DNA from: an uncultured delta proteobacterium
Lineage (GTDB): Bacteria > Desulfobacterota > Binatia > UBA9968
DNA length: 64,000 bases
NCBI GenBank assembly: GCA_963737905.1
Contig: CAVTUQ010000029.1
Location: 32,001-96,000 of the forward strand
Direction of reading: 5' to 3'
Of this stretch, positions 11,083 to 64,000 are shown piece after piece. Every line of letters starts with the position of its first letter. Positions within the stretch are counted from its first letter, which is position 1. The position numbers were made by a program, and so were the translations under genes. The notes beneath the pieces were generated by a model. It was not told the DNA's origin and ran no database searches. It saw only the letters and a program-made list of their open reading frames with translations.

Positions 11083-12113
11083 TTATCTGATCAACTTATT
11101 CGCCCGGGCGAGCACCTCCGGCGGAATGGTCAGGTCGATCTGCTTTGCGGTCTTAAGATTGATCACCAGCTCGAACTTCGTCGGCTGCTCGACCGGCAGA
11201 TCGGCGGGCTTGGCTCCCTTCAGGATTCTGTCCACGTAGTATGCGACGCGCCCGTAGCTGTCCGCTTGGTCCGCCCCGTAGGACATGAGCCCGCCGGTCT
11301 CTACAGCTTCTTTGTTTTTGTACACCGACGGTAACCGGCTCTTTAACGCCAAGCCAATGATCCGTTTTTCGTTGTTATTCATTAGTGGGCTCGCGGTCAC
11401 GTAGAGTCCATCCGGGCGCTGCTTGTTTAGCGCGGCGAATGCCTTCTCGAAACCGTCCGCAGCTCTTACCTCCCAAGGCTGAAGGGTCAACTTCAGGGCG
11501 CGCGCCGCGGCCGGGAGAACCTCTTTCACCTCGTGTACAGTGGTCGAAACGGCCGGATCATAGAGAACCGCGACACGGGCAAGTTGGGAACGGCTTCTTT
11601 GAGCAGTTCTAAACGCTTCCCGCCTAGTTCTCTGTCAAGGAGAGTAATGCCGGTGACGTTGCCGCCGGGACGGGCAAGGCTTTCAACATGGCCTGCTACG
11701 ACAGGATCGTTCCCAGAGCCCATCATAACGATGGGAATTGTCTTGGTCGCATTCTTGGCGGCCCGGACCACCGGCTCCGCTCCTGATACCAGAAGAATAT
11801 CAACCTTGAGACGCACTAATTCGGCCACAAGCTCAGGGTACCGATCGTTCTTCCCCTCCGCATATCGGTACTCGGTGGCGATGTTCTGTCCTTCGATGTA
11901 GCCATGCTCGCGCAGCGCCAGATATCCTATCCGCGGGACTTTCTTTGGCTGCTGCGCCTGAGCCATCGCCCCACCGAAGATGAATGTGAGAGTCATAGAG
12001 AAGATCCCCGCCCATTTTAGATTTTCGATACTTTGGCAAGGCTCAGCACAGGTTTTAGATTTTCGATTGTTGGACCGGAAACTCAAAGATCGCATCCAGG
12101 TTTTCTCATGCAT
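11083..12113 (-). pseudogene. ABC_sub_bind (PF04392-like) SBP with a frameshift and a short internal deletion
   Basis: ORFs 11526-12113 and 11083-11529 join into one gene; RIGYL-ALRE lacks about 17 codons relative to the 57998 paralogue. Confidence 0.8.
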
Positions 12114-12144
12114 TTGTTTTTCTCCAAATCTAAAATCGAAAATG

Positions 12145-13161
12145 TCATCTTATGACCCGATTCGCCCGCGAGAGAAACTCCGGCGAGAGTGTCAGACCGA
12201 TCTGTTTCGCTGCCTTCAAGTTGATCACGAATTCAAACTTCGTTGCCTGCTGCACCGGCAAATCAGCCGGTTTGGCACCCTTCAAGATCTTGTCCACGTA
12301 AACAGCCGCACGCCGATAGTTGTCAGTCGAGTCGATCCCGTAGAACATGAGACCGCCTTCATCGACATAATCCTTCGTTGGGTAAATAGCCGGCAAACGG
12401 TATTTGACGGCAAGCTCGACGATCCGCTTTCTCTCGGCGCGAAAGCGCCCACCGGCCTGCGGCATAATCGCGCCCACCTGTTTCTGCTTTGCGGTTTGGA
12501 AGGCGATTTCTAGTTTTTTGGCGTCGGGTTGAGTCTCGATCTCCTCCAGTTTTATCTTCAGTGCCACACCCGCAGGCCTGAGCTCTTTTAGTTGGGGGTT
12601 TTCTAGTTCACTCCTCTGCGTCACGAGAAATCCAACTCGGACAAGCTTGGGAACCGCGTCCTTGAGTATCTCTAGCCTTTTGGTACCTAGCTCGGGCGAT
12701 AAACCGGAGTTCCCGGTGATATTGCGTCCCGTCCGCGCCAGACTGGCAACCAAACCTTGTCCCACGGGGTCCGTAGAGGTCGCCATTACGATGGGGATGG
12801 TGCTGGTTGCTCTCTTCGCCGGTAACGACGTCCCTCCCCCTGAGATGACGATCACATCAACTTTTAGACGAACGAGTTCCGCCGCCAACTCCGGTAGCCG
12901 CTCATTTTTTTGCTCGGCAAACCGATACTCGATGGTGATGTTTTTACCTTCAATCCATCCAAGCTTGCTCAGCTCCTGCCGAAACGCCTCCCAGAGGACT
13001 GCCTGACTGGTTGCAGTGCTATTATCCAGGATACCGATGCGGAAGATTTTCCCTGTCTGTTGCGCGGCAGCGGACGCGCAAAACGCAAGGAGCATGGCGC
13101 CCACTAGGGTAAAGGCAAAGCGCATGGCGCTAGGTGCAAAAGCGATCCCGTTCCTACTCAT
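12145..13161 (-). CDS. ABC_sub_bind SBP, intact
   Basis: Signal peptide, AQQ..KI.RIG, SLARTGRNITG and [28 protein letters not shown] tail. Confidence 0.92.
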   Translation of the reverse strand: MSRNGIAFAPSAMRFAFTLVGAMLLAFCASAAAQQTGKIFRIGILDNSTATSQAVLWEAFRQELSKLGWIEGKNITIEYRFAEQKNERLPELAAELVRLKVDVIVISGGGTSLPAKRATSTIPIVMATSTDPVGQGLVASLARTGRNITGNSGLSPELGTKRLEILKDAVPKLVRVGFLVTQRSELENPQLKELRPAGVALKIKLEEIETQPDAKKLEIAFQTAKQKQVGAIMPQAGGRFRAERKRIVELAVKYRLPAIYPTKDYVDEGGLMFYGIDSTDNYRRAAVYVDKILKGAKPADLPVQQATKFEFVINLKAAKQIGLTLSPEFLSRANRVIR

Positions 13162-13218
13162 GAGTTTCTCCCCGTTTTATTTCCGCGCTATGCTTTTTGC
13201 CTTCTGCGCTCTGCCCTG

Positions 13219-13263: not shown

Positions 13264-13272
13264 CCTATCAGC

Positions 13273-48737: not shown

Positions 48738-48750
48738 TGGATCTTACGAC

Positions 48751-48823
48751 TTGAACGTCTTGAACGGTTTGAACTATTTGAACAAACTCGTTCCAGTCGT
48801 TCCAGACGTTCAAATCGTTCAAG
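48751..48823. repeat. Inverted nonamer tandem-repeat element (TTGAAC arm first)
   Basis: ttgaacgtcttgaacggtttgaactatttgaac ... gttccagtcgttccagacgttcaaatcgttcaa. Confidence 0.85.
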
Positions 48824-48836
48824 ACGTGGGGAAACA

Positions 48837-50597
48837 ATGCGAGAGCCCAGCGAGACAAAAATGAGTAGCGTCGACGCATTTACCGCCGAGGTCATTCGCA
48901 GCGCTGTGGTCGCCATCACCGGTGAGATGAAGACCAACCTGATGCGCACGGCCTATCACACGATTATTTACGAAGCGGAGGATTTCACCGTCGGGCTGTT
49001 CGACTCCGACGGCAACACGATCTCCATCGGCTTGGGTCTACCGATGTTCATCCGCGGCCTGTCGGACTCGATCAAGGCGAAAATCGAATTCTGGGGCAAG
49101 GAAAACATCGAGCCGGGTGACATTTTGCTCACCAATGACAGTTACACCATGGGGAGCCATCTCAATCACTTGATTTTTACCCTGCCTATTTTCAACGAGG
49201 GCGAGCTGGTCGCGTTTTCCTGCTCGATGGCCCACTGGCAGGATATCGGCGGGCAGCTCGGCGGCGTGACCCGGGATATTTTTTCCGAGGGGCTGCAGAT
49301 TCCCTTTGTAAAAATCTTCCGCGCCGGCAAGGAAAATCCCGAGATCACCTCGATCATCCGTGCCAACGTGCGCGTCCCGGAGCGCGCGATGGGAGACATG
49401 CGCGCCCAGCTCGCCTCGATCCGCACCGGCGAGCGGCGGCTCTTACAATTGCTCAAGCGCTACGGCAACCAGGCGTTCAAAGAGAGCATCCACCTGGTTT
49501 ATGAGCAGAGCGAGAAACTGGCGCGCGCCGCAGTCCGCCAGATCCCCGACGGCGTTTACGAAGCGGAGTCGTTCATGGACGACGACGGTGTCAATCTCGA
49601 CAAGCCGATTCCGATCAAGGTCCGCGTCGAAGTTTGCGGCGACGAGATGACCATCGACCTGAGCGGCGTCAGCCCTCAGGTGGCGGGATTTTATAATTCC
49701 GGACCCACCGCTGGACGGTCCGCCGCCGAGGTGGTTTTCAAATGCGTTACCGCGCCGCTATTGTTGCCGATCAACGAAGGATCGTTCCGGCCGCTGAAAA
49801 TCATTCTGCCGCCGGGCCGTGTGGTGAGCGCGACGAAGCCGGCACCGGTGCGCGTCTGGATGACCGTGCCCATGACCGTCTGCGACACGCTCTTTAGAGC
49901 TTTGGCTCCGGCGTGCCCCGAACGCACCATCGCCGGGCACTACGCCGACCTCTGCACTGTTAACCCGCATGGCTTCGACGCCGAGACCGGACGGTTTTTC
50001 TGGTCGCATATCGGCCACCCGGGCGGAGGTTGGGGCGCGAAGCACGACGAGGATGGGATGAACGCGACGGTGTGCCTCAACGACGGCGACACGCATAACG
50101 CCCCCGTGGAAGCGACCGAGGCGAAAAACCCCATCATTGTCGAACACCGCGCGCTGCGCCCGGACTCCGGCGGCGCGGGAAAATTTCGCGGCGGCCTGGG
50201 AGTATCCAACGAAGTGCGCATGCGCCGGCCGGCGACCATCCACGCGCATGTGGAGCGAACGATCTGCGCTCCGTGGGGGCTCCACGGCGGCAAAGACGCG
50301 CTGGCCAACCGGATTTTTATCACGCGCGAAGACGGCAAGGTTAAACGATTCCCGACGGGTAAAATCAATCCCACCGAAATCGACCAGGGCGATGGCTTTA
50401 CGGTAGAGACCGCCGGCGGCGGGGGATTCTGGAGTCCGCTGGAACGTCCCGCGGAGCGGGTGCTTGCCGACGTGTGTTCTGGTTACGTCTCACTGGAAGC
50501 GGCGCGCCGGGATTACGGTGTCATCATTCACCAGCAAGGACGCCGCTTCGAGCTCGACGTGGAAGCGACAGCGGCGCTGCGGCGAGATCGCAACTGA
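48837..50597 (+). CDS. Hydantoinase B / 5-oxoprolinase family protein
   Basis: PGDILLTND..GSHLN, HWQDIGG, EGLQIP, DSGGAGKFRGG and TAGGGGF. Confidence 0.93.
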   Translation: MREPSETKMSSVDAFTAEVIRSAVVAITGEMKTNLMRTAYHTIIYEAEDFTVGLFDSDGNTISIGLGLPMFIRGLSDSIKAKIEFWGKENIEPGDILLTNDSYTMGSHLNHLIFTLPIFNEGELVAFSCSMAHWQDIGGQLGGVTRDIFSEGLQIPFVKIFRAGKENPEITSIIRANVRVPERAMGDMRAQLASIRTGERRLLQLLKRYGNQAFKESIHLVYEQSEKLARAAVRQIPDGVYEAESFMDDDGVNLDKPIPIKVRVEVCGDEMTIDLSGVSPQVAGFYNSGPTAGRSAAEVVFKCVTAPLLLPINEGSFRPLKIILPPGRVVSATKPAPVRVWMTVPMTVCDTLFRALAPACPERTIAGHYADLCTVNPHGFDAETGRFFWSHIGHPGGGWGAKHDEDGMNATVCLNDGDTHNAPVEATEAKNPIIVEHRALRPDSGGAGKFRGGLGVSNEVRMRRPATIHAHVERTICAPWGLHGGKDALANRIFITREDGKVKRFPTGKINPTEIDQGDGFTVETAGGGGFWSPLERPAERVLADVCSGYVSLEAARRDYGVIIHQQGRRFELDVEATAALRRDRN

Positions 50598-50614
50598 AAG
50601 AAACCAGAATTTCA

Positions 50615-50775
50615 GCCGCAAAGGACGCAAAGGTCACAAAAATAAATTGACCACGGAGGGGACGAAGAGCACGAAGTTTAAGATTACATCTGTTCCAAAC
50701 TTTTCTTTGTGTTCTATGTGCCCTTTGCGGTTAAATCTCTTCTTTTCTTGGCGCTCTTTGCGCCTTTGCGCGAGA
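50615..50775. repeat. Nested inverted nonamer repeats (CGCAAAG and CACGAAG families)
   Basis: ccgcaaaggacgcaaaggtcacaaa..ccacggaggggacgaagagcacgaag ... ctttgtgttctatgtgccctttgcgg..cttggcgctctttgcgcctttgcgcgaga. Confidence 0.75.
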
Positions 50776-50786
50776 AGAGGTGATTT

Positions 50787-51641
50787 ATGAAACAGCTAAC
50801 AGCTAACGTGTTTGTGGAGACCGGACTCAAGGGCGCCAATCACGGCCTCGTGATGACTTCAGATGGCATTGTCTTGATCGACACGCCGCACAAGCCGAGC
50901 GATGCCGTGCGCCTCAGAGGAGAGATCGAGCGGCGCGGCCGGCTCCGCTACATCATCAACACCGAGCCTCACGGTGATCACTGGACTGGCAACGCGTTTT
51001 TCAACGTTCCTGTGGTTGCGCACGAAGGCGTGCGGTCCCGAATTCTGGGGACTGATCTGGCCGCGCATATTGCCCGCGTGGCATCGTTCGGACCCGACGA
51101 GCCGAAACTTCTGGAAAACTACAAACCCAATGCGCCGGTGATCACGTTTCAGAGCGAAATGACCTTGCACGTGGGCAATCACACGTTCCATATGATTCAC
51201 ATGCCCGGCCACACGCCGTACCAAGCAGCAGTGATCGTGCTGGAAGAGGGCATCGTCTTCACCAGCGACAACATCTTCTGCAAAGTACAGACCTGGCTCC
51301 AAGAAGCTAACCCGGACCATTGGCTGAAAGCGCTCGAATCGCTGCGAGCGCTGCGCGAGGAGACTTTTGTCCCCGGTCATGGACCGGTGTGCGATAAGAA
51401 ATATCTGGACGAACAAGGCTCGTTCATTCGCGAATGGGTAGATTATGTGCGCGGCGGGATCGAACGCGGGATGACCAAAGAAGAGTCCGTCGCCAACCTG
51501 ACGGCGATGACGGACAGGTATCCAATGGATGTCGGTCAAGACGGCATGTCACCCCACGTGATGCGTCTGAACGTCGCCAATCTTTACGACTACCTGACCG
51601 GTGCGGGGATCCACAAACGGGACAATAAGGGTGGGCAGTAA
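50787..51641 (+). CDS. Metallo-beta-lactamase fold hydrolase (cyclase-like)
   Basis: INTEPHGDHWTGN, PGHT, FTSD and VPGHG motifs. Confidence 0.9.
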   Translation: MKQLTANVFVETGLKGANHGLVMTSDGIVLIDTPHKPSDAVRLRGEIERRGRLRYIINTEPHGDHWTGNAFFNVPVVAHEGVRSRILGTDLAAHIARVASFGPDEPKLLENYKPNAPVITFQSEMTLHVGNHTFHMIHMPGHTPYQAAVIVLEEGIVFTSDNIFCKVQTWLQEANPDHWLKALESLRALREETFVPGHGPVCDKKYLDEQGSFIREWVDYVRGGIERGMTKEESVANLTAMTDRYPMDVGQDGMSPHVMRLNVANLYDYLTGAGIHKRDNKGGQ

Positions 51642-51677
51642 GCAGAGAGCGGTTAGCGGTAAAAAGGGAGACGACCT

Positions 51678-51968
51678 ATGAGTAAGAGAACGATTTGCCT
51701 TGCTCTAAGCGCTTTGCTCTTTGCACTTTGCTCGTCCGTCGAGGCACAGCAACCAGCGAACGTTCCGCGCATAGGCTTCATCAGTGCTACACCGATTTCC
51801 GCTATCCAGGCCCGCATCGAGGCATTCCGGCAGGGATTGCTCCAGGTCGGGTACCAGCAGGGGAAAAATATCTTCATCGAATATCGAGATGGTGAAGGAA
51901 AACCGGATCATATCCCGGTACTCGCGGCCGAGTTGGTGCGTCTCAAGGTAGACGTTATCGCCAGTTAA
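51678..51968 (+). pseudogene. Array copy 1: truncated ABC_sub_bind SBP
   Basis: Leader plus [25 protein letters not shown]. Confidence 0.8.
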
Positions 51969-52023
51969 CACTGGACAATGGCCGGTTATCAGTTGGAAGA
52001 ATAAGAGGAGTGAAAATGATGAA

Positions 52024-53011
52024 ATGGAAAAATCGCTTATCTGCTTACTGGCAACTCTCTTGCTGATAACTGTTTCGTCCGTCGGAGGCGCAGCAGTTAC
52101 CGACGAAAGTCGCCCGGATAGGATTCCTATCATTGCTGTCATCCCCGTCCGCTGCCGCGGCCCGCACGGAAGCTTTCCGGCAAGGTCTGCGCGAGCTTGG
52201 TTACGTTGAGGGGAAAAACATCGTCATTGAGTCGCGATATGCAGAGGGAAAACTCGATCGCCTTCCAGCGCTCGCGGCCGAATTGGTGCGTCTCAAGGTA
52301 GACATCATCGTCACGGCCGGTGGGCAAGCAACCCGCGCCGCCAAGGAAGCAACCCCTACGATTCCTATTGTCATGACGAACGATCCCGATCCCGTTGGCT
52401 CCGGGTTCGTCGCCAGTCTCGCGCGGCCTGGTGGAAACATTACTGGCTTGTCCACGCTTGCCCCGGAGTTAAGCGGAAAACGACTGGAGCTTCTCAGAGA
52501 GGTCGTCCCTAAGCTCTCTCGCGTGGCCATCGTCGGGACTTCAACCCAACCGGGCCACGCGCAAGCGATAAAAGAGCTGGAACTCGCCGCAAAGTCGTTC
52601 AAGGTGCAGATTCAATATTTAGATGTTTTAGAGTCCAAGGATATCGAAACTGCATTTCGAGCCGCAGCCAAGGGGCGGGCTGACGGAGTCCTCACGCTAA
52701 CGAGCCCCATCCTCCGTTCTCAGCGAGCACAGCTTGCAGACCTTGCGGTAAAGAACCGGATCCCCGCGATATACAACGACATCCAGTTTGTAGAAGCCGG
52801 GGGACTTATCTTCTACGGCGTGAGCTTTCTCGACTTGGACCGCCGCGCCGCCACGTATGTCGACAGAATTTTAAAGGGCGCCAAACCTGCTGATCTCCCC
52901 GTGGAGCAACCCACCAAGTTCGAGTTCATCATCAATCTGAAAGCCGCCAAGCAGATCGGCCTGACGATTCCGCCGAATGTGCTGGCGCGAGCGGACAAGG
53001 TCATAAGATGA
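52024..53011 (+). CDS. Array copy 2: ABC_sub_bind SBP (indels near 5' end)
   Basis: Leader ORF at 52024 plus body ORF 52133-53011. Confidence 0.85.
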
Positions 53012-53059
53012 CGAAGGGCCAAGCGCAGAGAGCAAAGAGCAAGAAACGGGAGAAACCTG

Positions 53060-54051
53060 ATGCGAAGAAACGATATTGTTTTTACGCTTAGCGCTATGCT
53101 CTTTGCGCTTTGCTCATCGCGCCGAAGCGCAGCAGCCGAAGAAAATCCCTGCGATCGAATACCTAACCGCTATCCCTCGTACCTCGCTCGGCGCAGCTCC
53201 CCGCATCGAGGCCTTCCGGCAGGGGTTGCGCGAGCTTGGTTACCTAGAAGGGAAAAACATTTTCATTGAGTGGCGATGGGCAGCGGGAAAACAAGATAGT
53301 CTGCCCGGACTTGCGGCCGAGCTCGTTGAGTCTCAAGGTAGACATCATCGTCTCAGGTGGTTCGACGGCAACCCAGGCCGCCAAGGATGCGACGAGCACG
53401 ATTCCCATTGTCATATCGCAGGACAACGATCCTTTGGCGAACAGGTTTGTCGCCAGTCTGGCCCGGCCCGGTGGAAACATCACCGGTCTGGCTACACTCA
53501 GATCTGAGGTGAGCGGAAAACACATGGAGATCCTTAAGGAGATCGTTCCGAAGCTCTCCCGCATCGCCGTGTTGGGAACTTCGAACAATCCGGGCAATGC
53601 CCAAGCGCTAAAAGAAATTGAACTCGCCGCTGATGCGCTCAATGTGCAGCTGCAAATCCTCGACGTTCTGCTTCCCAAAAACATCGAGGTTGCATTTCGC
53701 ACCGCAATCAAGGGGCGTGCCGACGGCATCCTCGCACTGGCGAGTCCCGTTTTGAATTCCCATCGAACCCAGGTTGTCGATCTCGCGGTCAAGAGCCGCC
53801 TTCCGGCGATCTATGACAGGCGAGAATTTATCGATGCCGGGGGGCTGATGACTTACGGCGTGAGCGTCGTTGATATGGACCGACGCGCTGCGGTCTTTGT
53901 CGACAAAATTTTGAAAGGCAGAACTCCGGCCGAACTTCCGGTAGAGCAGCCAACGAAGTTTGAATTCATCGTCAATCTCAAAGCCGCGAAAGCGATCGGC
54001 TTGATGATCCCGCCGAACGTGTTGGCGCGTGCGGACAAAGTAATTCGGTGA
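53060..54051 (+). CDS. Array copy 3: ABC_sub_bind SBP (frameshifted)
   Basis: Three overlapping frames (53060, 53076, 53266) reconstruct the full gene. Confidence 0.85.
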
Positions 54052-54111
54052 GAAGTAAAAAAATGAGACGTAAATAAAACGGAGAGCGCGGGCAAAATCG
54101 GGGGAGCGAAA

Positions 54112-55095
54112 ATGATGCGTAGACAAATCTTTGTTTGGTTACTGACCACTTTGTTACTGGCAACTGTTTCCGCCCACGCGCAGCAGCCGGCGAAAATTCC
54201 GCGAATTGGCTTTGAGTCCGACTCACCGGTGACGTCAATTGCCGCGCGAGTCGATGGATTCCGCCAGGGTCTGCGCGAGCTTGGTTACGTCGAGGGGAAG
54301 AACATTTTAATCGAGTGGCGCGCCGCAGAATTGAAGCCCGAGCGGCGCAGCGAGATCGCTGCCGAGCTGGTGCGTCTGAAAGTCGATCTTATCGTCTCGG
54401 CTGGGCCGACGATAACGCGCACTCTGAGGGAAGCGACGACGACGATACCGATTATTATGGCGCAAGATACCGATCCAGTTGGCAGCGGCTTCGTTGCAAG
54501 CTTGGCGAAACCCGGAGGTAACATTACGGGTTTTTCCGCTCTCTCACCGGAGATGAGCGGCAAACAATTGGAACTCATGAAAGAAATCATCCCCAAAATC
54601 TCGCGTGTAGCGGTGATTGGCAATTCGACCAATCCCGGTGACGCACAAGCACTGCGTGAGACTGTGCTAGCGGCGGGTGCATACGAAATCTATCTGCGAT
54701 ACCTGGAGGTCCAAGATGCCAAGGATGTCGAGCCGGTGCTGCGCTCCGCCGTCAAGGGGCGCGCCGACGCACTCATAGTGCTGGGCAATCCGATCCTCAA
54801 TCGCAATCGTCAACAAGTTGTCGATCTTGCCGCCAAGCTCCGCTTACAGGCGGCGTACGCGCGACCTGAGTTTGTCGAGGCGGGTGGTCTGATGACTTAC
54901 GGCACCAACTATCCCGAACTTTTCCGTCGCGCCGCTACTTATGTCGACAAAATATTAAAGGGCGCCCAGCCCGCCGATCTGCCCGTTGAACAACCGGAGA
55001 AGTTTGAGTTCATCGTCAATCTGAAAGCGGCAAAGCAGATTGGACTTACGATTGAGCCCAACGTGCTGGCGCGGGCGGATCGGGTGATTAGATGA
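54112..55095 (+). CDS. Array copy 4: ABC_sub_bind SBP, intact
   Basis: 327 aa with signal peptide and the shared tail. Confidence 0.92.
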   Translation: MMRRQIFVWLLTTLLLATVSAHAQQPAKIPRIGFESDSPVTSIAARVDGFRQGLRELGYVEGKNILIEWRAAELKPERRSEIAAELVRLKVDLIVSAGPTITRTLREATTTIPIIMAQDTDPVGSGFVASLAKPGGNITGFSALSPEMSGKQLELMKEIIPKISRVAVIGNSTNPGDAQALRETVLAAGAYEIYLRYLEVQDAKDVEPVLRSAVKGRADALIVLGNPILNRNRQQVVDLAAKLRLQAAYARPEFVEAGGLMTYGTNYPELFRRAATYVDKILKGAQPADLPVEQPEKFEFIVNLKAAKQIGLTIEPNVLARADRVIR

Positions 55096-55223
55096 AAGCG
55101 CTACGCGTGTTCCAATGGTTTCAAACGTTCGAATGGTGTTAGTACGGATTGGACAAACGCGTTGCGAGAGCGTGAAGCGGTGAGTGGAGGCCTGTCATTG
55201 TAAAGCAAACCCGGAGGGAACCG

Positions 55224-56204
55224 ATGCCGACACATGTTTTTCTCATTGTTTTAACCTTTGTCATTGCGCTTAGTCTCCCCGCCCAGGCGCAGCAGCCGGC
55301 GAAGGTCCCGCGGATCGGATACCTGAGTGGCGTTTCCCCTGCCGCAGAAGCCGCGCGCCGCGATGCGTTCAACCAGGGGCTGCGCGAGCTAGGCTATATC
55401 GAGGGCAAGAGCGTCGTCGTCGAATATCGCTATTAGGGGGAAAATCGGATCGCCTCGCTTCGTTGGTGGCGGAGCTGCTGCAGCTCAAGCCGGACATCAT
55501 CGTCACCGGCGGCAGTCCGTCGACGCGCGCCGCCAAGGCGGCGACCGCCACGATCCCTATTGTGATGACGAATGATCCCGATCCCGTAGCCAACGGATTA
55601 ATCGCTAGCCTGGCGCGACCAGGTGGCAACATCACGGGATTATCCACTCTCGCTCCGGAGCTGAGCGGCAAAAGATTGGAGAAATTAGGAGAAGTACGTT
55701 CCCAATCTTTCTCGCGTCGCCATCCTCGGGACCTCGACGAGCCCGGCCTACCGGCCCGTCAAGAAAGAGATCGATCTAGCCGCTAACGCTCTCAAGCTTC
55801 AGCTTGACTACCAAGACGTGTTGGATTTTAAGGATATCGAGTCTGCCTTTCGAGCCGCGGTCAAAGGGCGCGCCGACGCAGTCATGACACTCAACAGCGG
55901 GATCCTCAATTCCCAGCGAAGCCAGATCGTAAACCTCGCGGCAAAGCATCACTTTGCCACGATTTATACCCAGGCCGAATTCGTGGAAGTTGGCGGGCTG
56001 ATGTTCTACGGCGTGAACCTGGTCGATCTGTCGCGCCGCGCCGCAACCTATGTCGACAAGATTCTCAAAGGCGCCAGACCTGCCGACATTCCTGTCGAGC
56101 AAGCAAAGAGGTTCGAGTTCATCATCAATCTAAAGGCAGCGAAGCAGATCGGTCTGACGATCCCGCCCAACGTGCTGGCGAGAGCGGACAAGGTCATAAG
56201 ATAG
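55224..56204 (+). CDS. Array copy 5: ABC_sub_bind SBP (frameshifted)
   Basis: Fragments at 55224, 55463 and 55818. Confidence 0.85.
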
Positions 56205-56251
56205 CAAAGGGCCAAGCGCAGAGAGCAAAGAGCAGAAACGGGAGAAACCTC

Positions 56252-57236
56252 ATGCGAAGAAACGATATTGTTTTTACGCTTAGCGCTATGCTCTTTGCGC
56301 TTTGCTTTTCCGCTCAGGCGCAGCAACCGACGAAAGTCGCCCGGATAGGATTCCTACTTGCTGTCTCCCCGTCTGCTGCCGCGGCCCGCACGGAGGTTTT
56401 CCGGCAAGGTCTGCGCGAGCTTGGGTACGTGGAGGCGAAAAACATCGTCATTGAATCGCGATATGCAGAGGGAAATTTCGATCGCCTCCCGGCGCTCGCG
56501 GCCGAACTGGTGCGTCTCAAGGTAGACATCATCGTCACGGCCGGCGGGCAAGCAACCCGCGTCGCCAAGGAAGCAACCCCTACGATTCCCATTGTCATGA
56601 CGAACGATCCCGATCCCGTTGGCTCCGGGTTCGTCGCCAGTCTCGGGCGCCCGGGTGGAAACATTACTGGCTTGTCCACGCTTGCCCCGGAGTTAAGCGG
56701 AAAACGACTGGAGCTTCTCAGAGAGGTCGTTCCTAAGCTCTCCCGCGTTGCCATCGTCGGGACTTCAACCCAAGCGGGCCACGCGCAAGCGATAAAAGAG
56801 CTGGAACTCGCCGCAAAGGCGTTCAAGGTGCAGATTCAATATCTAGATGTTTTAAAGTCCAAGGATATCGAGACTGCATTTCGAGCCGCAGCCAAGGGGC
56901 GGGCTGACGGATTGCTCACGCTAACGAGCCCCATCCTCCGTTCTCAGCGAGCACAGCTTGCAGACCTTGCGGTGAAGAACCGGATCCCCGCGATATACAA
57001 CGACATCCAATTTGTGGAAGCTGGGGGACTTATCTTCTACGGCGTGAGCTTTCGCGACTTGGACCGGCGCGCTGCAACTTACGTGGACAAGATTCTCAAA
57101 GGGCGCTAAGCCCGCCGATCTTCCGGTCGAGCAACCGACGAAATTCGAGTTCATCATCAATCTGAAAGCCGCCAAGCAGATTGGCCTGACAATCCCGCCG
57201 AATGTGCTGGCGCGGGCGGACAGAGTCATTCGGTGA
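56252..57236 (+). CDS. Array copy 6: ABC_sub_bind SBP (frameshift near 57100); body nearly identical to copy 2
   Basis: ORF 56252-57109 plus tail ..ADRVIR* ending at 57236. Confidence 0.88.
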
Positions 57237-57290
57237 GGTGTGAGCCGACAGGATGAGGGGGCTAGGAGAACGAATGATGGGTCGAAATCA

Positions 57291-57689
57291 TCACACAATA
57301 CCCGACGCAATCGGCTCGAACGTCACTCTACGGGCGTGGTCGTTGAAACAAACCTCGAACTGGTTGAACACTCCGGTTCGGCCGAGAAGATTAAATCCAA
57401 CACCGAGCCGCTCAGAGAAACCGATCGGCGCCGTAATTTGCGTGCCGCCGATTTGGACTGGAAGATCGTGAATAAAAGTAGGAATATAGCTCCCGTCGCC
57501 AACCACGATCATCTGATGCCTGCCCGCGCGCCAATCGATACCGATGCGTGCCGCTTCATCGACGTTCAGCATGCTAAACGTCGCCCCAGAGTCAACAAAA
57601 ACCCAGAGCCTGTGGGCATGGATGGAGATGGGTACAATGGGCATCAAATAGCCCCGGTGACGCGTGTAAGGAAATTCTATAGCAGGCAC
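57291..57689 (-). CDS. Retropepsin-like (clan AA) aspartyl protease
   Basis: FVDSGATFS catalytic motif and NLLGR motif; 132 aa. Confidence 0.85.
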   Translation of the reverse strand: MPAIEFPYTRHRGYLMPIVPISIHAHRLWVFVDSGATFSMLNVDEAARIGIDWRAGRHQMIVVGDGSYIPTFIHDLPVQIGGTQITAPIGFSERLGVGFNLLGRTGVFNQFEVCFNDHARRVTFEPIASGIV

Positions 57690-57886
57690 GCCATGTCCTC
57701 TTCCCGCGGGACACGAAGCACGGATGGCATCTTGTTAGGTTCAATCTCACGCGCCTTGCTCTCCACTTCTTTTCCGGAATCCCCAACGGCCACCAAAGTC
57801 TCATTTACCACGGCGACATACTTTCCGGCATATTTCGTCACCAGCTCGCTGAAGTGGTCGACAATCCAAAGATCGTCTTTATCCAT
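57677..57886 (-). CDS. DUF5678-like small protein
   Basis: WIVDHFSELVTKYAGKYVAVVNETLVAVGDS..EV...A; overlaps the protease gene. Confidence 0.75.
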   Translation of the reverse strand: MDKDDLWIVDHFSELVTKYAGKYVAVVNETLVAVGDSGKEVESKAREIEPNKMPSVLRVPREEDMACLL

Positions 57887-57997
57887 CGTCTTTTCCCTTC
57901 TGCTCCAGACACTTTTCGACCTTAACTCTAAATTGTCTGCGGTCTGCGAGTCAACCTTATCTCGGGTCAATTGTAGCGATTTGATCGGGGTGAGTCC

Positions 57998-58990
57998 ATG
58001 AAGAGAACTATCCTGATTTTGGCATTCGGTTTTATTCTTATGATCGACTTCGTTTCCGCCGACGCGCAGCAGCCGAAGAAAGTCACCCGAATTGGGTATC
58101 TATCGTCGCAAGACCCAGCTTATGAGTCTGCCCGTGCCGAGGGGATTCGGCTGGCACTTCGCGAGCTCGGCTACATGGAAGGACAGAACATCGCCATCGA
58201 GTATCGGTATTCGGAGGGGAAGACCGATCGGGCTTCAGAGCTTGCGGCCGAGTTGGTGCGTCTCAACGTCGATATTATCGTGGTAGCAGGAGGGATCATA
58301 TGGATCAGGGCGGCCAAGAATGCAGCCAAGTCGATTCCCGTCGTCATGGCGGGCATTGGAAACGACCCTGTCGAAGCAGGCCTGATTGAAAGCCTTGCCC
58401 GTCCAGGCGGCAACGTCACAGGTCTTACAAACCTTACGGGAAAATTGGCTGGCAAGCGGCTGGATCTCCTCAAAGAAGCTGTTCCCAAGCTTGCCCGTGT
58501 CGCGGTTCTTTACCAACCCGCCACTCCGGCTAATGTGCTCGAGGTAAACGAGGATCTTCCAGTTGCGTCGCGTGTTCTGAAGTTGACGGTTCAGCCTTGG
58601 GAGGTACGAGCTGCGGAGGGTTTTGACGGGGTATTCGATGCGCTAAACAAGCAGCGCCCGGATGGACTCTACGTGGCGGGCAGCCCGCTCACAAATGCTA
58701 ACCAAAAACGGATCGCGGGATTGGCATTAAAGAGCCGGTTACCGTCGGTGTTTGCCGAGAGAGGAGCTGTAGACGCCGGTGGGCTCATGTACTACGGGGC
58801 GGACCTCGCAGACAGCTACCGGCGCGTCGCCTATTACGTGGACAGAATCTTGAAGGGCGCCAAGCCGGCTGATTTGCCTGTTGAGCAGCCAACGAAGTTC
58901 GAGTTGGTGATTAACCTCAAGACCGCGAAGCAGATCGGCGTAACGATTCCGCCGCAGCTGCTCGCCCGGGCGAGTAGGCTCATCAAGTGA
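57998..58990 (+). CDS. Array copy 7: ABC_sub_bind SBP, intact
   Basis: 330 aa; same subfamily as the 11083 and 14248 copies (QPWEVRA..KQRPDGLYV). Confidence 0.92.
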   Translation: MKRTILILAFGFILMIDFVSADAQQPKKVTRIGYLSSQDPAYESARAEGIRLALRELGYMEGQNIAIEYRYSEGKTDRASELAAELVRLNVDIIVVAGGIIWIRAAKNAAKSIPVVMAGIGNDPVEAGLIESLARPGGNVTGLTNLTGKLAGKRLDLLKEAVPKLARVAVLYQPATPANVLEVNEDLPVASRVLKLTVQPWEVRAAEGFDGVFDALNKQRPDGLYVAGSPLTNANQKRIAGLALKSRLPSVFAERGAVDAGGLMYYGADLADSYRRVAYYVDRILKGAKPADLPVEQPTKFELVINLKTAKQIGVTIPPQLLARASRLIK

Positions 58991-60008
58991 GAAGGGGTGA
59001 CAAAGTGGATCGAGGCATAGAAAAATACACGAAGAAAAAAGTCACGGTCGTTATTCTTTGCGCCATGCTCTTTGCGCTTTGCCCGCCCGCCGAGGCGCAG
59101 CAGCCGAAGAAAATCCCACGGATAGGTTACTTGGGTGCCTTCACCCCTTCCGCTGGCGCCTCCCTCCTTGAAGCTTTCCGCCAAGGGCTGCGCGAGCTTG
59201 GCTACGTGGAGGGCCGGAAGACTTCATTGATTACCGCTGGGCGGAGGGAACGCCCGATCGGTTCCCAGCCCTTGCCGACGAGCTGATCAATCTCAGGGTA
59301 GACGTGATCGTTACACAGAGCAACGCAGCGGTGGCAGCTCTTCAGCAGGCGACCCGAACCGTACCCATCGTCGTGGCGGGTATGGGCGATCCTGTTGAGA
59401 GCGGCTTCGTCGGCAGCCTCGCGCGGCCGGCCGGGAACATTACCGGCTTCTCAAATCAAGCCGAAGAGGTCGCAGGCAAATGGGTGGAGCTACTCAGGGA
59501 GGCCGTGCCCAAGATTCCCGCATCGCCGTCCTCGCAGTTTCCCAGACCTCGTCCCACCGCACCTATTGGGCACAGATCCAAGCGACGGCCCAAGCGTTGA
59601 AGGTGACTCCCCAGCGCCAAGAGGTGGTGGGACCGGACGAGATCGAGCACGCCTTCGCGAACCTCACCAAGGGCCATCCCCAGGGGCTCATCGTACTGCC
59701 GCATGCTGTCACCATCGAACGTCGAACGCAGATCGTGGACCTGTCAGCAAAGAACCGGCTGCCGGGGATGTACCCCTTTAGCTTGTTGTGGAGTCCGGTG
59801 GCCTCATGTCCTACGGGACGAACTTGGCTGACCTGCACCGGCGGGCCGCCACCTACGTGGGCAAGATTTTGAAAGGCGCGAAACCCGCAGACCTTCCGGT
59901 CGAGCGGCCAATAAGTTCGATTTCATCATTAATCTGAAAGCGGCCAAGCAGATCGGTCTCACGATCCCACCAAATGTACTGGCCAGAGCTGACAAAGTAA
60001 TTCGATGA
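58987..60008 (+). CDS. Array copy 8: ABC_sub_bind SBP (several frameshifts)
   Basis: Fragments at 58987, 59304 and 59480 plus tail ending in TGA at 60008; start uncertain. Confidence 0.8.
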
Positions 60009-61026: not shown

Positions 61027-61033
61027 ATCGAAC

Positions 61034-61116
61034 AATCTAAAATCCAAAATCGAAAATCTAAAATAGTAGGGATTCCGCCGAACGTGTTGGCGAGGGCGGA
61101 TCGGGTCATAAGATGA
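61034..61116 (+). pseudogene. Heptamer repeat joined to an orphan SBP 3' tail ('empty site')
   Basis: aatctaaaatccaaaatcgaaaatctaaaat-agtaggg-ATTCCGCCGAACGTG..ATAAGATGA ([14 protein letters not shown]). Confidence 0.8.
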
Positions 61117-61162
61117 AAGTTACGATTTTCATTGTCGATTTTAGAGTGAGGGAGACAAAAAC

Positions 61163-62209
61163 ATGACTAAGAAAACTCGAGCGACGATCCGATGGGTTCC
61201 ATCCGACAATCGGAAATCTAAAATCGAAATCGAAAATGGTGGGGATCCTAGGCATCTTTTTCACTGTGTGCTTGTTAGCGCGGGGGTTCAAGCGCAGCAG
61301 CCAACCAAAGTGCCCCGGATAGGATATCTAAGTGGGGCCTCCTCTTCCACAATCGCGGCTCGCATCGAGGCATTCCGGCAAGGGCTGCGCGAGCTTGGTT
61401 ATATAGAAGGGAAAAACATTATCATCGAATGTCGATATGCAGAGGGAAAAGCTCGATCGCCTTCCGGCGCTCGCGGCCGAGCTAGTGCGTCTCAAAGTGG
61501 ACGTGCATCTGTCTGCCGGGGCAGCGGTCACCGGTCCTGCTAAGGAACGCCACGGAGACAATCCCTATTGTCATGGCTCAGGATACCGATCCTGTCGGAA
61601 ACGGGTTCGTCGCCAGCCTTGCGCGACCTGGCGGAAACATTACCGGACTCTCCTCCTATTCACCGGAGATAAACGGAAAACGAGTAGAGCTTCTTAAGGA
61701 GATCGTACCTAAGCTTTCCCGCTTAGCCGTGCTCGGGCAGTCAACCTATCCAGGCAACTCCCAAGCGTTAAAAGAAACGGAACTCGCCGCAGAAGCGCTG
61801 AAGTTACAGCTCCAATACCTAGACGTGTAAGATCCAAGGACATCGAGACGGCGTTTCGAGCAGCAAGCAAGACGCGTGCCGGCGGAGTCCTCGTGCTGCA
61901 GAACAATGTCCTCAATTCTCAGCGAAAACAAACTGTTGATCTCGCGATAAAGAACCGACTTCCGACGATCTACCACGTTCCAGAATTTTTGGAAGCGGAG
62001 GGCTGATAAGTTACGCGGCGAGCATCAACGACTTGTACCGGCGCTCCGCCACATACGTGGACAAGATTTTGAAAGGCGCCAAGCCTGCCGACCTCCCGGT
62101 GGAGCAGCCGATCAAGTTCGAGTTCGTCATCAATCTGAAAGCGGCCAAGCAGATTGGATTAACCATTCCACCCAACGTTTTGGCTAGAGCAGACAAAGTC
62201 ATAAGATGA
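61163..62209 (+). pseudogene. Array copy 10: ABC_sub_bind SBP (multiple frameshifts and stops)
   Basis: Fragments at 61163, 61437 and 61573 plus tail ending at 62209. Confidence 0.8.
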
Positions 62210-62413: not shown

Positions 62414-62462
62414 TACTTTTTCACAGAAAACCCGGAACAACCTTTTTACTAAGGAGGATCCT

Positions 62463-63690: not shown

Positions 63691-63740
63691 TTAACAGTAA
63701 GCAGAGAGCAGTGAGCAGTAAAAACAAGAGGAGCCAAACA

Positions 63741-64000
63741 ATGATGAGAAAGTTTAATGTCCGCTTACTGCTTACTGTCTTCCTGCTTACTGTTTCTTTC
63801 GCCGAGGCGCAGCAGCCAACGAAAATCCCGCGGATAGGTTATGTCGCCACTACTGCTCCCGATACACCTAACAACTTGGCATTCCGACGAGGACTGCGAG
63901 ACCTCGGTTATATTGAAGGGAAAAACATCCTGGTTGAGGATCGCTACGCCGCGGGAAAAGCGGACCGCATCCCTAACCTTGTGGCGGAACTGGTGCAAAT
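63741..64000 (+). CDS. Array copy 11: ABC_sub_bind SBP, runs off the window end
   Basis: GAGGAG RBS; MMRKFNVRLLLTVFLLTVSFAEAQQPTKIPRIGY. Confidence 0.88.
   Translation, partial: MMRKFNVRLLLTVFLLTVSFAEAQQPTKIPRIGYVATTAPDTPNNLAFRRGLRDLGYIEGKNILVEDRYAAGKADRIPNLVAELVQ

What the first reader, a model, noticed from the sequence alone, without database searches (positions are those of the whole stretch)
53021..53114. Signal peptides encoded by the downstream arm of inverted repeats straddling the RBS
Seen: upstream AAGCGCAGAGAGCAAAGAGCA pairs with coding GCTATGCTCTTTGCGCTTTGCT (AMLFALC). Similar pairs occur at 56214-56306, 13115-13213, 51640-51734 and 51985-52073 (GTTATCAG/CTGATAAC). At 63697-63791 AGTAAGC..AGTGAGCAGTAA pairs with CTTACTGCTTACTG (LLLTVFLLT). 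Inference: different repeat families supply RBS plus export signal as a portable module, and may form hairpins that control translation or act as attC-like sites.
Basis: partly seen in the sequence, partly recalled or inferred. Interest (0 to 1): 0.75.

Follow-up and report, generated by a model that had tools for sequence, protein, structure and literature searches.

The report
Heptamer hairpins spanning binding-protein gene starts
In an uncultured soil bacterium (Binatia), many copies of one transport binding-protein gene begin inside a hairpin built from 7-base repeats, so one hairpin arm is read as part of the protein's export signal, and these start modules have been swapped among the gene copies.

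Summary
The inverted repeat at 53012-53119 is real and far beyond chance, as are those at 56203-56306 and 63693-63794. Three other named sites (51640, 51985, 13115) do not beat shuffles on folding energy.

Both arms are short tandem arrays of 7-base units. The upstream arm starts at the stop codon of the preceding PF04392 binding-protein paralog. The loop holds the Shine-Dalgarno site and ATG. The downstream arm is translated as part of the signal peptide.

With equal-length controls, 17 of 72 family members score 24 or more, against 0 of 449 control genes. At least five unit classes occur. Three of them encode hydrophilic n-region extensions, so purine/pyrimidine composition does not explain the pairing.

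The arrays belong to a genome-wide class of heptamer-array palindromes, of the STRR kind. Module class is random on the tree of the mature domains, and an AU test gives p = 6.5e-7, so modules move among paralogs.

I found no sign of RNA-level selection. G·U does not exceed A·C among mismatches, own arm pairs are no better than same-class cross pairs, and SD/AUG are not masked. attC cores are absent.

The same architecture occurs in other Binatia genomes. This scan has noted similar heptamer-encoded signal peptides in other phyla, on other DNA.

The parts
52133..53011 (+). Preceding PF04392 paralog. Its stop codon (53009-53011) directly abuts the left arm.
   Evidence: Pfam PF04392, E 2e-53. 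Gap from stop to arm is 0 nt.
53012..53043 (+). Left (upstream) arm, class 1. Purine-rich heptamer units (..AGCGCAG AGAGCAA AGAGCAA..).
   Evidence: Arm coordinates. Fold -48.9 kcal/mol, z -5.5.
53048..53062 (+). Loop content: Shine-Dalgarno GGGAGAA (53048-53054) and ATG (53060-53062).
   Evidence: Read. Unpaired in the minimum-energy fold.
53087..53119 (+). Right arm, translated as ..[11 protein letters not shown].. (hydrophobic core). The reading frame breaks just after it, at about 53116-53119.
   Evidence: A 1-nt difference at 53116/53119 appears in metagenome contigs.
56203..56239 (+). Left arm, class 1. It starts at the TAG stop of the preceding paralog fragment (55818-56204).
56240..56254 (+). 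SD GGGAGAA (56240-56246) and ATG 56252, in the loop.
56270..56306 (+). Right arm, read as [13 protein letters not shown] in [26 protein letters not shown].
   Evidence: Fold -45.5 kcal/mol, z -4.1.
61122..61145 (+). Left arm, class 3 (GATTTTN units). ATG at 61163.
   Evidence: SW 31.
61217..61240 (+). Right arm, class 3, read as SKIEIENG. This is a hydrophilic n-region extension. The gene is truncated (126 aa).
63693..63721 (+). Left arm, class 2 (AGCAGTR units). ATG at 63741.
   Evidence: SW 38. Fold -43.3 kcal/mol, z -6.75.
63765..63794 (+). Right arm, class 2, read as LLLTVFLLTV (hydrophobic core).
13185..13209 (-). Left arm, class 1, of the minus-strand paralog that starts at 13161.
   Evidence: SW 25. 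Fold z only -1.26.
13076..13135 (-). Two alternative right-arm copies (AMRFAF.. and GAMLLAFCA) inside one long signal peptide.
12013..12144 (-). Class 3 module of the next minus-strand paralog. Left arm 12128-12144, start 12095, right arm 12013-12029 read as IENLKW.
   Evidence: SW 24.
51640..51734 (+). The upstream arm is of class 2 type and the leader of class 1 type, with only a 9-bp pairing. Not above chance.
   Evidence: SW 13. Fold z -0.95.
51985..52073 (+). GTTATCAG/CTGATAAC pairing before a frameshifted paralog. Not above chance on folding energy.
   Evidence: Fold z -1.40. Sequence.

Best explanation
These are heptamer-array palindromes. They are pairs of short, imperfect tandem arrays of 7-base units in inverted orientation, of the same general kind as cyanobacterial STRR and other heptanucleotide repeats, and they are abundant throughout this Binatia genome.

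At the junctions of tandemly arrayed PF04392 periplasmic binding-protein paralogs, one such palindrome fills the whole spacer. The layout is:
- The left arm begins at the stop codon of the upstream paralog.
- The loop carries the Shine-Dalgarno site, the ATG and the first codons.
- The right arm lies in the coding sequence and is translated.

Translation is tolerated because a 7-base unit is read in all three frames in turn. For the units used here the result is either an uncharged Leu/Ala/Cys/Ser/Phe stretch that serves as the hydrophobic core (GCTCTTT gives ALCSLLF) or a Lys/Arg-rich extension of the n-region (AAAATCG gives KIENRKS).

The whole arm-loop-arm module is bounded by two family-conserved stretches: the 3' end of the previous paralog, and the AEAQQP..IPRIG cleavage region. 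I infer that modules spread among paralogs by homologous recombination or gene conversion between these anchors, so a module's class is unrelated to the ancestry of the mature domain it precedes.

Shown here: the anatomy, the excess over controls, the genome-wide repeat class, the restriction to this family, the discordance with the tree, and the conservation of the architecture across Binatia.

Inferred: the DNA-level origin (slippage in 7-nt steps, with copying between arms or between modules) and the recombination route.

The mRNA hairpin (-43 to -49 kcal/mol at the three best window sites) follows from the inverted repeat. It leaves SD and AUG unpaired in a closed loop, so any effect on expression would come from clamping or coupling to the upstream cistron, not from masking the ribosome binding site. 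I rate a selected regulatory role at about one in three.
For: Anatomy.

Excess over controls:
- Family 17 of 72 at SW >=24, against 0 of 149 secreted-looking and 0 of 300 cytoplasmic-looking genes.
- Own partner mean 17.99, against 13.8-15.7 in 20 partner permutations.

Heptamer nature and genome-wide class:
- TRF period 7 is the commonest period (661 of 2785 arrays).
- 246 of 721 merged arrays have an exact reverse complement of 9 nt or more within 200 nt.
- 106 of 173 inverted pairs have no ORF starting in the spacer.
- A 50-kb island, C28:160-210 kb, is packed with the same unit classes between unrelated genes.

Restriction to the family: heptamer arrays lie in leader codons in 28 of 72 family members, 0 of 149 other secreted genes and 1 of 300 cytoplasmic genes.

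Not a composition effect: classes 3 to 5 encode SDNRKSKIENLKW, KSAFRNLKSAI and KPISDRRLL.

Junction position:
- The arm starts -2 to +13 nt after the upstream paralog's stop in 14 of 15 cases.
- 15 of 27 members with an upstream paralog are IR-positive, against 8 of 45 without one.

Module mobility:
- 20 label changes on the tree, against a shuffled mean of 20.1-20.3 and a minimum of 5.
- AU test p 6.5e-7.
- Module identity 0.92 against mature-part identity 0.64, and overall correlation 0.0075.
- Alignments show similarity running from the upstream gene's end through both arms and then dropping, with 7-nt indels.
- The syntenic site in G002 carries class 3 where the window carries class 2.

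DNA-level rather than RNA-level signal:
- G·U 39 against A·C 29, p 0.27.
- Own pairs mean 28.5 against same-class cross pairs 25.8.
- IR status is unrelated to gene intactness: 13 of 23 against 28 of 49.

Unit filter:
- The enriched units translate without stops or charge in one orientation.
- GTTCAAG-type units are never at family starts (0 of 109).

Other genomes:
- Same architecture in G003 (SW 34), G017, which is in another family of the same order (29), and G004 (21, 21).
- 9 of 40 family N-termini in loci of MAGs titled Candidatus Binatia, uncultured delta proteobacterium or Proteobacteria bacterium (the window's closest matches) score >=20.
Against: - The same architecture (arm, SD-ATG loop, arm) recurs with five unrelated unit classes and across genera. 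Random insertion of neutral palindromes does not easily predict that, and it hints at selection or a targeted generating process.
- The filter argument is incomplete. Some unused units would also translate acceptably, for example ATGGCTT gives MAYGLWL, yet it is found at 0 of 14.
- No recombination event was caught directly, and no tract boundaries were mapped statistically.
- The tree is a 'quick' LG+G4 tree with 35 of 61 forks unresolved.
- I assigned the classes by hand, before the tree was built.
- The AU tests for classes 2 and 4 did not finish.
- Start codons and the control 'secreted' set come from my own heuristics.
- 14 of 86 N-termini were dropped for lack of a callable start or cleavage anchor.
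- One IR-positive member (C7 31668, SW 21) is not heptamer-like and may be chance.
- The genome is a MAG: 87.5% complete with 6.7% contamination.
Confidence: 0.55

Rival explanations
1. A selected RNA device. On the polycistronic mRNA the long stem clamps the initiation region of each paralog. The left arm begins at the upstream stop codon, so a terminating ribosome would melt it. That would couple initiation to translation of the upstream paralog. Alternatively the stem acts as a 3'-protective hairpin or an RNase III site that sets the expression of each cistron.
For: - Very stable folds at the three best window sites (-43 to -49 kcal/mol, z -4.1 to -6.75).
- The arm abuts the upstream stop in 14 of 15 cases.
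- IR modules are enriched at internal array junctions (15 of 27 against 8 of 45).
- SD and AUG are kept unpaired in the loop: unpaired probability 0.50, against 0.395 in other secreted genes, p 0.001.
- The architecture is conserved with different units across Binatia.
- Stems of 25-37 bp are long enough for RNase III in principle (established knowledge, not tested here).
Against: - G·U is not in excess over A·C (39 against 29, p 0.27).
- There are 60 transversion mismatches.
- Own pairs are no better than same-class cross pairs.
- Only 24 of 72 members have the inverted repeat. 18 have a coding array without a TRF-detected upstream array.
- Presence is unrelated to gene intactness.
- Loop size varies from 27 to 106 nt.
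- One same-genus gene has the arrays in direct rather than inverted orientation (L011/L024, direct SW 32).
- Identical repeat palindromes lie between unrelated genes.
Confidence: 0.3
2. A contingency (phase-variation) switch. Gain or loss of one 7-base unit in the translated arm shifts the reading frame and turns a paralog off or on, as with coding repeats in leader sequences of some pathogens' surface proteins.
For: - 7 is not a multiple of 3.
- 7-nt indels are seen between module copies.
- Many paralogs are frameshifted or truncated (158 ORF segments for 86 N-termini).
Against: - The units are imperfect and few, typically 3-5 copies, which is poor for slippage.
- The 7-nt indels seen are in the untranslated arm.
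- By eye, the two leader frameshifts in the window (near 53116-53119 and near 52085) look like single-base changes in the c-region, not unit changes.
- IR status is unrelated to intactness.
Confidence: 0.05
3. attC-like or other site-specific recombination sites that mark the paralogs as mobile cassettes.
For: - An imperfect palindrome follows each gene's stop codon.
- The genome encodes an integron integrase (456 bits against a cut-off of 265).
- An earlier scan note reports a cassette array elsewhere in this genome (unchecked here).
Against: - R'' (RYYYAAC) with R' (GTTRRRY) cores at attC spacing: 0 of 23 IR-positive and 0 of 49 IR-negative modules.
- The arms are tandem heptamers of many classes rather than one conserved site.
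- The right arm lies inside the next gene's codons.
- The integrase is on another contig (C7:226498-227442) and I noted no family array beside it.
Confidence: 0.04
4. Chance or composition. Purine-rich Shine-Dalgarno-like leaders would pair with pyrimidine-rich codons of hydrophobic residues in any secreted-protein gene.
For: - Dinucleotide shuffles of the upstream region already give strong duplex energies, so 57 of 72 members are within 2 sd of shuffles.
- Three of the six named sites are not above shuffles.
Against: - 0 of 149 other secreted-looking genes reach SW 24, against 17 of 72 in the family.
- Classes 3 to 5 pair A/T-rich arms that encode charged residues.
- Arms match within a class and not across classes (28.5 and 25.8 against 15.3).
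Confidence: 0.03

Closest known systems
Heptanucleotide tandem repeats: cyanobacterial STRR sequences and Nostoc 'contiguous heptamer repeats' near start codons
   Same: - Short tandem arrays of 7-base units.
- Many different unit families in one genome.
- Concentrated in intergenic DNA near gene starts, with a suspected but unproven role in expression. The Nostoc preprint 10.1101/2022.06.06.494920 reports arrays near or overlapping start codons and an effect of deleting them on reporter activity. I read passages only.
- STRR as such is recalled, not checked in any call.
   Different: - Here the arrays come as inverted pairs that enclose SD and ATG.
- One arm is translated as signal peptide.
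- The arrangement is tied to one expanded paralog family.
- The lineage is Binatia, not Cyanobacteria.
- 'Hairpin' occurs 0 times in that preprint's main text.
Intergenic TAACTGA direct repeats of marine Beggiatoaceae, some Cyanobacteria and Bacteroidetes (MacGregor 2015, PMC4679880)
   Same: - Heptamer arrays placed a few bases upstream of start codons.
- Indels in 7-nt steps between strains.
- Proposed post-transcriptional role.
I read passages only.
   Different: - That case has one unit (TAACTGA) as direct repeats: 169 direct sets against one inverted set.
- Forward repeats give stops in all frames and are not translated.
- 'Signal peptide' occurs 0 times in the paper.
- Here there are many units, inverted pairs, and a translated arm.
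REP/BIME-type intercistronic palindromes after periplasmic binding-protein genes in enterobacteria (recalled, not checked in any call)
   Same: A stable palindrome directly after the stop codon of a binding-protein gene inside an operon, able to act as an mRNA hairpin.
   Different: - REP elements are not built of tandem heptamers.
- They lie wholly between genes.
- They do not contain the next gene's ribosome binding site, start codon or codons.
Coding repeats in leader-peptide regions of Neisseria opa genes (CTCTT)n (recalled; also named in earlier scan notes; no paper read here)
   Same: A short repeat whose unit is not a multiple of three is translated as the hydrophobic part of a signal peptide.
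   Different: - The opa repeats are perfect, numerous and act as a slippage switch.
- Here the units are imperfect and few, are paired with an inverted copy upstream, and show no evidence of switching.

Membership tests
Heptanucleotide tandem repeats (STRR-like long simple sequence repeats) | Tandem arrays of a 7-nt unit, 2 or more to several copies | tested here: met
   TRF found 661 period-7 arrays (median 3.9 copies), plus 212 of period 14 and 31 of period 21. The arms at 53012-53119, 56203-56306 and 63693-63794 read as heptamer units.
Heptanucleotide tandem repeats (STRR-like long simple sequence repeats) | Many dispersed arrays of several unit families, mostly intergenic | tested here: met
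   188 canonical units. 106 of 173 inverted pairs have no ORF start in the spacer. There is an array island at C28:160-210 kb.
Heptanucleotide tandem repeats (STRR-like long simple sequence repeats) | Cyanobacterial host (for STRR in the strict sense) | tested here: not met
   The closest loci come from MAGs titled Candidatus Binatia or uncultured delta proteobacterium.
TAACTGA-type start-proximal direct repeats | Unit TAACTGA, direct orientation, ending a few nt before the start codon | tested here: not met
   TAACTGA is not among the 50 commonest period-7 units nor in the family modules. The arrays are inverted pairs, with SD between arm and ATG.
Integron attC site | R'' RYYYAAC and R' GTTRRRY cores 45-150 nt apart flanking an imperfect palindrome | tested here: not met
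   0 of 23 IR-positive and 0 of 49 IR-negative modules. The core motifs were recalled.
Integron attC site | Association with an integron integrase or cassette array | tested here: not met
   IntI (TIGR02249, 456 bits) is at C7:226498-227442, on a different contig from the window.
MITE (miniature inverted-repeat transposable element) | Terminal inverted repeats with target-site duplications and dispersed near-identical copies | not tested
   Target-site duplications were not examined. Module copies are shared only among family junctions.
Sec-type cleavable signal peptide | Basic n-region, hydrophobic h-region, A-x-A cleavage motif | tested here: inconclusive
   By eye, [26 protein letters not shown] and MMRKFNVRLLLTVFLLTVSFAEA/QQP fit. 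No signal-peptide predictor or export assay was available.
PF04392 ABC_sub_bind periplasmic binding protein | Pfam match above the gathering score | tested here: met
   10 of 17 window ORFs scanned match, E 1.5e-22 to 6.4e-55. 158 ORF segments in the genome match my HMM. The family is expanded in 12 of 12 same-family genomes searched.
Phase-variable coding repeat (opa-like) | Unit-number polymorphism in the translated tract that switches the frame | tested here: inconclusive
   7-nt indels were seen only in untranslated arms between paralogs. By eye, the leader frameshifts in the window look like single-base changes. No within-population data were available.

The most novel reading that the evidence does not exclude
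Heptamer-array palindromes are products of an active, lineage-spanning process that builds repeats in 7-nt steps and copies them between hairpin arms. At the junctions of tandem binding-protein genes this process repeatedly creates and replaces whole 5' modules (leader, ribosome site, start codon, signal-peptide codons). The result is new export signals made from non-coding repeat DNA. It also yields a clamp that makes initiation of each paralog depend on the ribosome finishing the previous one. That would be a new kind of intercistronic coupling element and a driver of birth-and-death evolution in the paralog array.
Probability: 0.2. Interest if true: 0.8.

Novelty: new variant of a known kind. 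Interest (0 to 1): 0.6.

Why it matters
Three points would matter if this holds.

1. Part of a working-looking signal peptide can be plain repeat DNA, read in all three frames in turn. That is a concrete route from non-coding repeats to functional peptide sequence.
2. The 5' ends of a very large paralog family (about 86 N-termini in 6.7 Mb) evolve as exchangeable cassettes, separate from the mature domains.
3. Gene callers and orthology pipelines would be misled at such starts. If the hairpin does act on expression, it would be a simple and widespread intercistronic control element in uncultured soil bacteria.

Heptamer repeats have lacked a function and a mechanism of origin since they were first described. 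A family with dozens of comparable junctions per genome is a good place to test both.

Tried and rejected
- RNA duplex energy against dinucleotide shuffles. It was weakly discriminating because composition alone gives strong duplexes (15 of 72 at z<-2). I replaced it with local alignment scores and gene-set controls.
- The first control used shorter downstream regions for the controls than for some family members. It was redone with equal lengths, and those are the figures used.
- Regex assignment of module classes missed many members and was dropped. Classes were assigned by hand from the alignments.
- The first AU test run timed out. It was finished for class 3 only. Classes 2 and 4 were not finished, and class 1 was not attempted.
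- Masking of the ribosome binding site by the hairpin is not seen. Unpaired probability of -15..+5 is 0.50 in IR-positive against 0.465 in IR-negative members, p 0.30.
- attC reading: core motifs absent.
- The consensus promoter and terminator scan of 51400-64000 gave counts at or below shuffle level and no site at the modules.
- Rfam: no family at gathering score anywhere in the window.
- Expression: no RNA holder was listed for 52000-58000.
- Laying four DNA runs gave mostly multi-organism family noise. Nothing on expression or habitat is claimed from it.
- Literature searches for an inverted heptamer pair spanning a start codon or encoding a signal peptide found none. The Binatota searches and PF04392 searches gave listings only, with nothing relevant in titles or abstracts.
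- Earlier scan notes looked up by sequence: none.
Full report
**What is at the site.** The window is G000:C29:32001-96000 of a 6.7-Mb, 46-contig genome. The genome is a MAG, 87.5% complete with 6.7% contamination. The closest loci elsewhere come from MAGs titled Candidatus Binatia or uncultured delta proteobacterium.

10 of 17 window ORFs scanned match, with E values from 1.5e-22 to 6.4e-55.

At 53009-53011 the preceding paralog ends (TGA). The layout that follows, is:
- 53012-53043: a purine-rich stretch.
- 53048-53054: GGGAGAA.
- 53060: ATG.
- 53087-53119: the reverse complement of the upstream stretch, read as ..[11 protein letters not shown]...

A near-identical module lies at 56203-56306. 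A differently composed module lies at 63693-63794.

**Is it more than chance?** Folded as RNA with 200 dinucleotide shuffles each:
- 53010-53125: -48.9 kcal/mol, z -5.5.
- 56200-56315: -45.5 kcal/mol, z -4.1.
- 63690-63800: -43.3 kcal/mol, z -6.75.
- No shuffle was as good at any of these three sites.
- The other three named sites are not individually significant (z -0.95, -1.40 and -1.26).

It found 158 matching ORF segments in the genome, of which 86 contain the N-terminus. A start codon and cleavage anchor could be called for 72. Fourteen were dropped: 7 without an anchor and 7 without a start.

I aligned -90..-7 against the reverse complement of +7..+141, with the same lengths for all sets:
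- Family: 24 of 72 score >=20 and 17 of 72 score >=24 (max 45).
- Secreted-looking genes of other families: 2 of 149 >=20 and 0 of 149 >=24.
- Cytoplasmic-looking genes: 8 of 300 >=20 and 0 of 300 >=24.
- Same-strand control in the family: 1 of 72 >=20.

Permuting partners lowers the mean from 17.99 to 13.8-15.7 across 20 permutations. The refutation condition, 'no greater than for other secreted-protein genes', is therefore not met. The control sets rest on my own crude start and signal-peptide heuristics.

**The arms are heptamer arrays.** The listing and the alignments show that the arms are short, imperfect tandem arrays of 7-base units. At least five classes occur:
1. GGAGCAN/AGAGCAA upstream, with GCTCTTT/GCTCCAT downstream, read as LALCSMLLAPC or AMLFALC.
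2. AGCAGTR, with CTGCTTA downstream, read as LLLTVFLLTV.
3. GATTTTN, with AAAATCN downstream, read as SDNRKSKIENLKW.
4. CGGATTK/CGAATTT, with AAATCCG downstream, read as KSAFRNLKSAI.
5. CAGAAAT/CAGAGGT, with its complement read as KPISDRRLL.

Classes 3 to 5 encode charged extensions of the n-region that lie ahead of a separate hydrophobic core. Pairing of purine-rich leaders with pyrimidine-rich hydrophobic codons therefore cannot be the explanation. Arms match within a class and not between classes: own pairs average 28.5, same-class cross pairs 25.8, and other-class cross pairs 15.3.

**A genome-wide repeat class.** The evidence for this is:
- Period 7 is the commonest TRF period (661 of 2785 arrays, plus 212 of period 14 and 31 of period 21), with 188 canonical units.
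- Of 721 merged arrays, 246 have an exact reverse complement of at least 9 nt within 200 nt.
- Of 173 collapsed inverted pairs, 106 have no ORF of 80 aa or more starting in the spacer. Examples in the window are at 40080-40142 and 42143-42245.
- A 50-kb stretch, C28:160-210 kb, holds over 110 arrays of the same unit classes, stacked into nested palindromes between unrelated genes.

Where an ATG with a Shine-Dalgarno site starts inside the spacer, the gene is almost always a PF04392 member. 16 of the 75 ORFs listed are family members, and most of the rest are TTG/GTG ORFs without a ribosome site. TRF arrays overlap leader codons in 28 of 72 family members, 0 of 149 other secreted-looking genes and 1 of 300 cytoplasmic-looking genes.

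The unit classes used at family starts are a subset:
- AAAGCGC 11 of 15, AGCAGGG 6 of 15, AAGGAGC 6 of 11, and AAGCAGT 3 of 4 lie at family starts.
- The commonest units, the GTTCAAG type, are never there (0 of 109).
- The used units translate, in one orientation, without stops or charge: GCTCTTT gives ALCSLLF and GCTCCTT gives APCSLLL.
- The GTTCAAG type gives stops or charged residues.
- This filter is not complete, because a few unused units would also be acceptable.

**Position in the arrays.** In 15 of 23 IR-positive members, an upstream family gene ends within 200 nt. In 14 of those 15 the left arm begins -2 to +13 nt after that gene's stop codon. 15 of 27 members with such an upstream paralog are IR-positive, against 8 of 45 without one. 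The loop, which holds SD, ATG and the first codons, is 27-106 nt.

**Modules move among paralogs.**
- On a maximum-likelihood tree of the mature domains (64 rows, quick LG+G4), module class needs 20 changes. The minimum is 5 and the shuffled mean is 20.1-20.3.
- Well-supported branches alone force at least 6, 3, 3 and 2 changes for classes 1 to 4.
- An AU test rejects the three class-3 carriers as one clade (delta lnL 185, p-AU 6.5e-7). I named the classes, before the tree was built.
- Pairs share modules at 0.86-0.92 identity while their mature parts are at background (0.64-0.74). Across all pairs the correlation is 0.0075.
- Alignments show similarity running from the conserved 3' end of the upstream gene through left arm, SD, ATG and right arm. 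It then drops and resumes at the conserved AEAQQP cleavage region. There are 7-nt indels in the left arm.
- In the same-genus genome G002, the gene upstream of the 63.7-kb module is 94% identical up to its stop codon. The DNA after it is unrelated, and the following paralog has a class 3 module. In G001 a GCTTATGGC-type palindrome sits there and no paralog.

I infer exchange by homologous recombination or gene conversion between the two conserved flanks. No event was mapped directly.

**Does the RNA hairpin look selected?**
- Among mismatches in the 23 best pairs, G·U (39) does not exceed A·C (29), p 0.27, and 60 mismatches are transversions.
- Own arm pairs are no better than same-class cross pairs.
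- IR status is unrelated to whether the gene is intact (13 of 23 against 28 of 49).
- The initiation region is not masked. The mean unpaired probability of -15..+5 is 0.50 in IR-positive members, 0.465 in IR-negative members (p 0.30), 0.395 in other secreted genes (p 0.001) and 0.42 in cytoplasmic genes.

So the stem would act, if at all, by clamping the initiation region in a closed loop, by coupling to termination on the upstream cistron, or as a processing or stabilising hairpin. It would not act by hiding the ribosome site. No RNA data could be found. No Rfam family matches. Consensus promoter and terminator scans are at chance.

**Other genomes.**
- PF04392 is expanded in 12 of 12 same-family genomes searched.
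- In loci from relatives, 7 of 32 N-terminal rows score >=20. Two loci are G000's own, and two genes appear twice in the rows.
- The positives include G003 class 3 (34) and G017 (29). G017 is in another family of the same order. Its unit is AGGCAGT upstream with CTGCCTA downstream, where the window has AAGCAGT with CTGCTTA.
- G004 scores 21 twice.
- In named public MAGs, 9 of 40 N-termini in loci of MAGs titled Candidatus Binatia, uncultured delta proteobacterium or Proteobacteria bacterium score >=20.
- In loci titled with other taxa (Betaproteobacteria, Gemmatimonas, Rokubacteria, Verrucomicrobiia, Syntrophobacteraceae), 2 of 19 do. Both are GC-rich and show no heptamer arrays by eye.
- One G001 gene has the arrays in direct rather than inverted orientation (direct score 32).

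**attC reading.** R'' and R' core motifs at attC spacing occur in 0 of 23 IR-positive and 0 of 49 IR-negative modules (the motifs were recalled). The genome's integron integrase is on another contig.

**Comparison with what is known.** Heptanucleotide tandem repeats are known.
- MacGregor 2015 (PMC4679880; passages read) describes TAACTGA direct repeats just upstream of start codons. It reports 169 direct sets against one inverted set and never mentions signal peptides.
- A Nostoc preprint (10.1101/2022.06.06.494920; passages read) reports contiguous heptamer repeats near or overlapping start codons, with effects on reporter activity.
- STRR, REP/BIME and opa coding repeats are recalled, not checked in any call.
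- My searches found no paper describing inverted heptamer arrays that enclose a start codon, or whose arm encodes a signal peptide.
- Earlier notes of this scan describe the same general phenomenon on other DNA, in Nitrospirota, Acidobacteriota, Omnitrophota, groundwater Deltaproteobacteria and others, and recombining junction modules in Bacteroidales. These are unchecked AI notes, and I used them only as leads.

**What this case adds.**
- The restriction to one massively expanded paralog family.
- The fixed junction position at the upstream stop codon.
- A formal test that modules are discordant with the mature domains.
- Negative tests for RNA-level selection.

**Verdict.** It is a lineage-typical heptamer-array palindrome sitting on the junctions of tandem binding-protein paralogs, with one arm translated. 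The 'portable module' idea is supported as recombinational exchange. Translational control remains an open inference, which I rate at about one in three. The attC idea is rejected.

Noticed in passing
window 51678-57240 (and genome-wide): Many PF04392 paralogs are broken. Examples are 51678-51968 (96 aa), the frameshifted gene starting near 52017, the frameshifted gene at 53060, the fragment 55818-56204, and 56252-57109 (285 aa). Genome-wide there are 158 ORF segments for 86 N-termini. At 53116-53119, contigs from three of the four soil and bog runs laid differ by one base from the window, so this break may be specific to this assembly or strain.
   Followed up: partly
G000:C28:160000-210000 (L064-L066): A roughly 50-kb island in which the spacers between unrelated genes are filled with stacked, nested heptamer arrays of the same unit classes as the binding-protein modules (GGAGCAT, CGGATTT, CAGAGGT, CTTACCC and others). 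It holds over 110 TRF arrays, and the four densest 10-kb bins of the genome are here.
   Followed up: partly
window 40080-40142 and 42143-42245: Intergenic palindromes of GTTCAAG/TTGAACC heptamer arrays. This is the commonest unit class in the genome and is never found at binding-protein starts.
   Followed up: partly
L011/L024 (G001:C8): A same-genus paralog has AATCCAAAATCC-type arrays both upstream and in the leader codons (MRSRSDNPKSKIQNLKS..) in direct rather than inverted orientation (direct score 32, inverted score 10).
   Followed up: no
L004 and L010 (G002, G010): Several relatives' paralogs are preceded by a different conserved upstream element..CCCTCGCCC(T)TTGGGAGAGGGATAGGGTGAGGG.., a small hairpin lying wholly upstream of the ATG.
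   Followed up: no
G000:C7:226498-227442 (L067): A full-length integron integrase gene (TIGR02249, 456 bits against a cut-off of 265, no internal stops). An earlier scan note reports a cassette array elsewhere in this genome.
   Followed up: no
window 46680-51641: Hydantoinase/oxoprolinase A and B genes and a metallo-beta-lactamase-fold gene lie directly ahead of the binding-protein array. NMT1-like binding proteins are at 43857-44834 and 62364-63455. A relative (L036) has the same genes in a different order relative to its array.
   Followed up: no
window 13240-13300 (minus strand): A CGGATTT/GGATATT/CGGAATG-type heptamer array lies in place of the usual 3' coding end just upstream of the 13161 module.
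   Followed up: no
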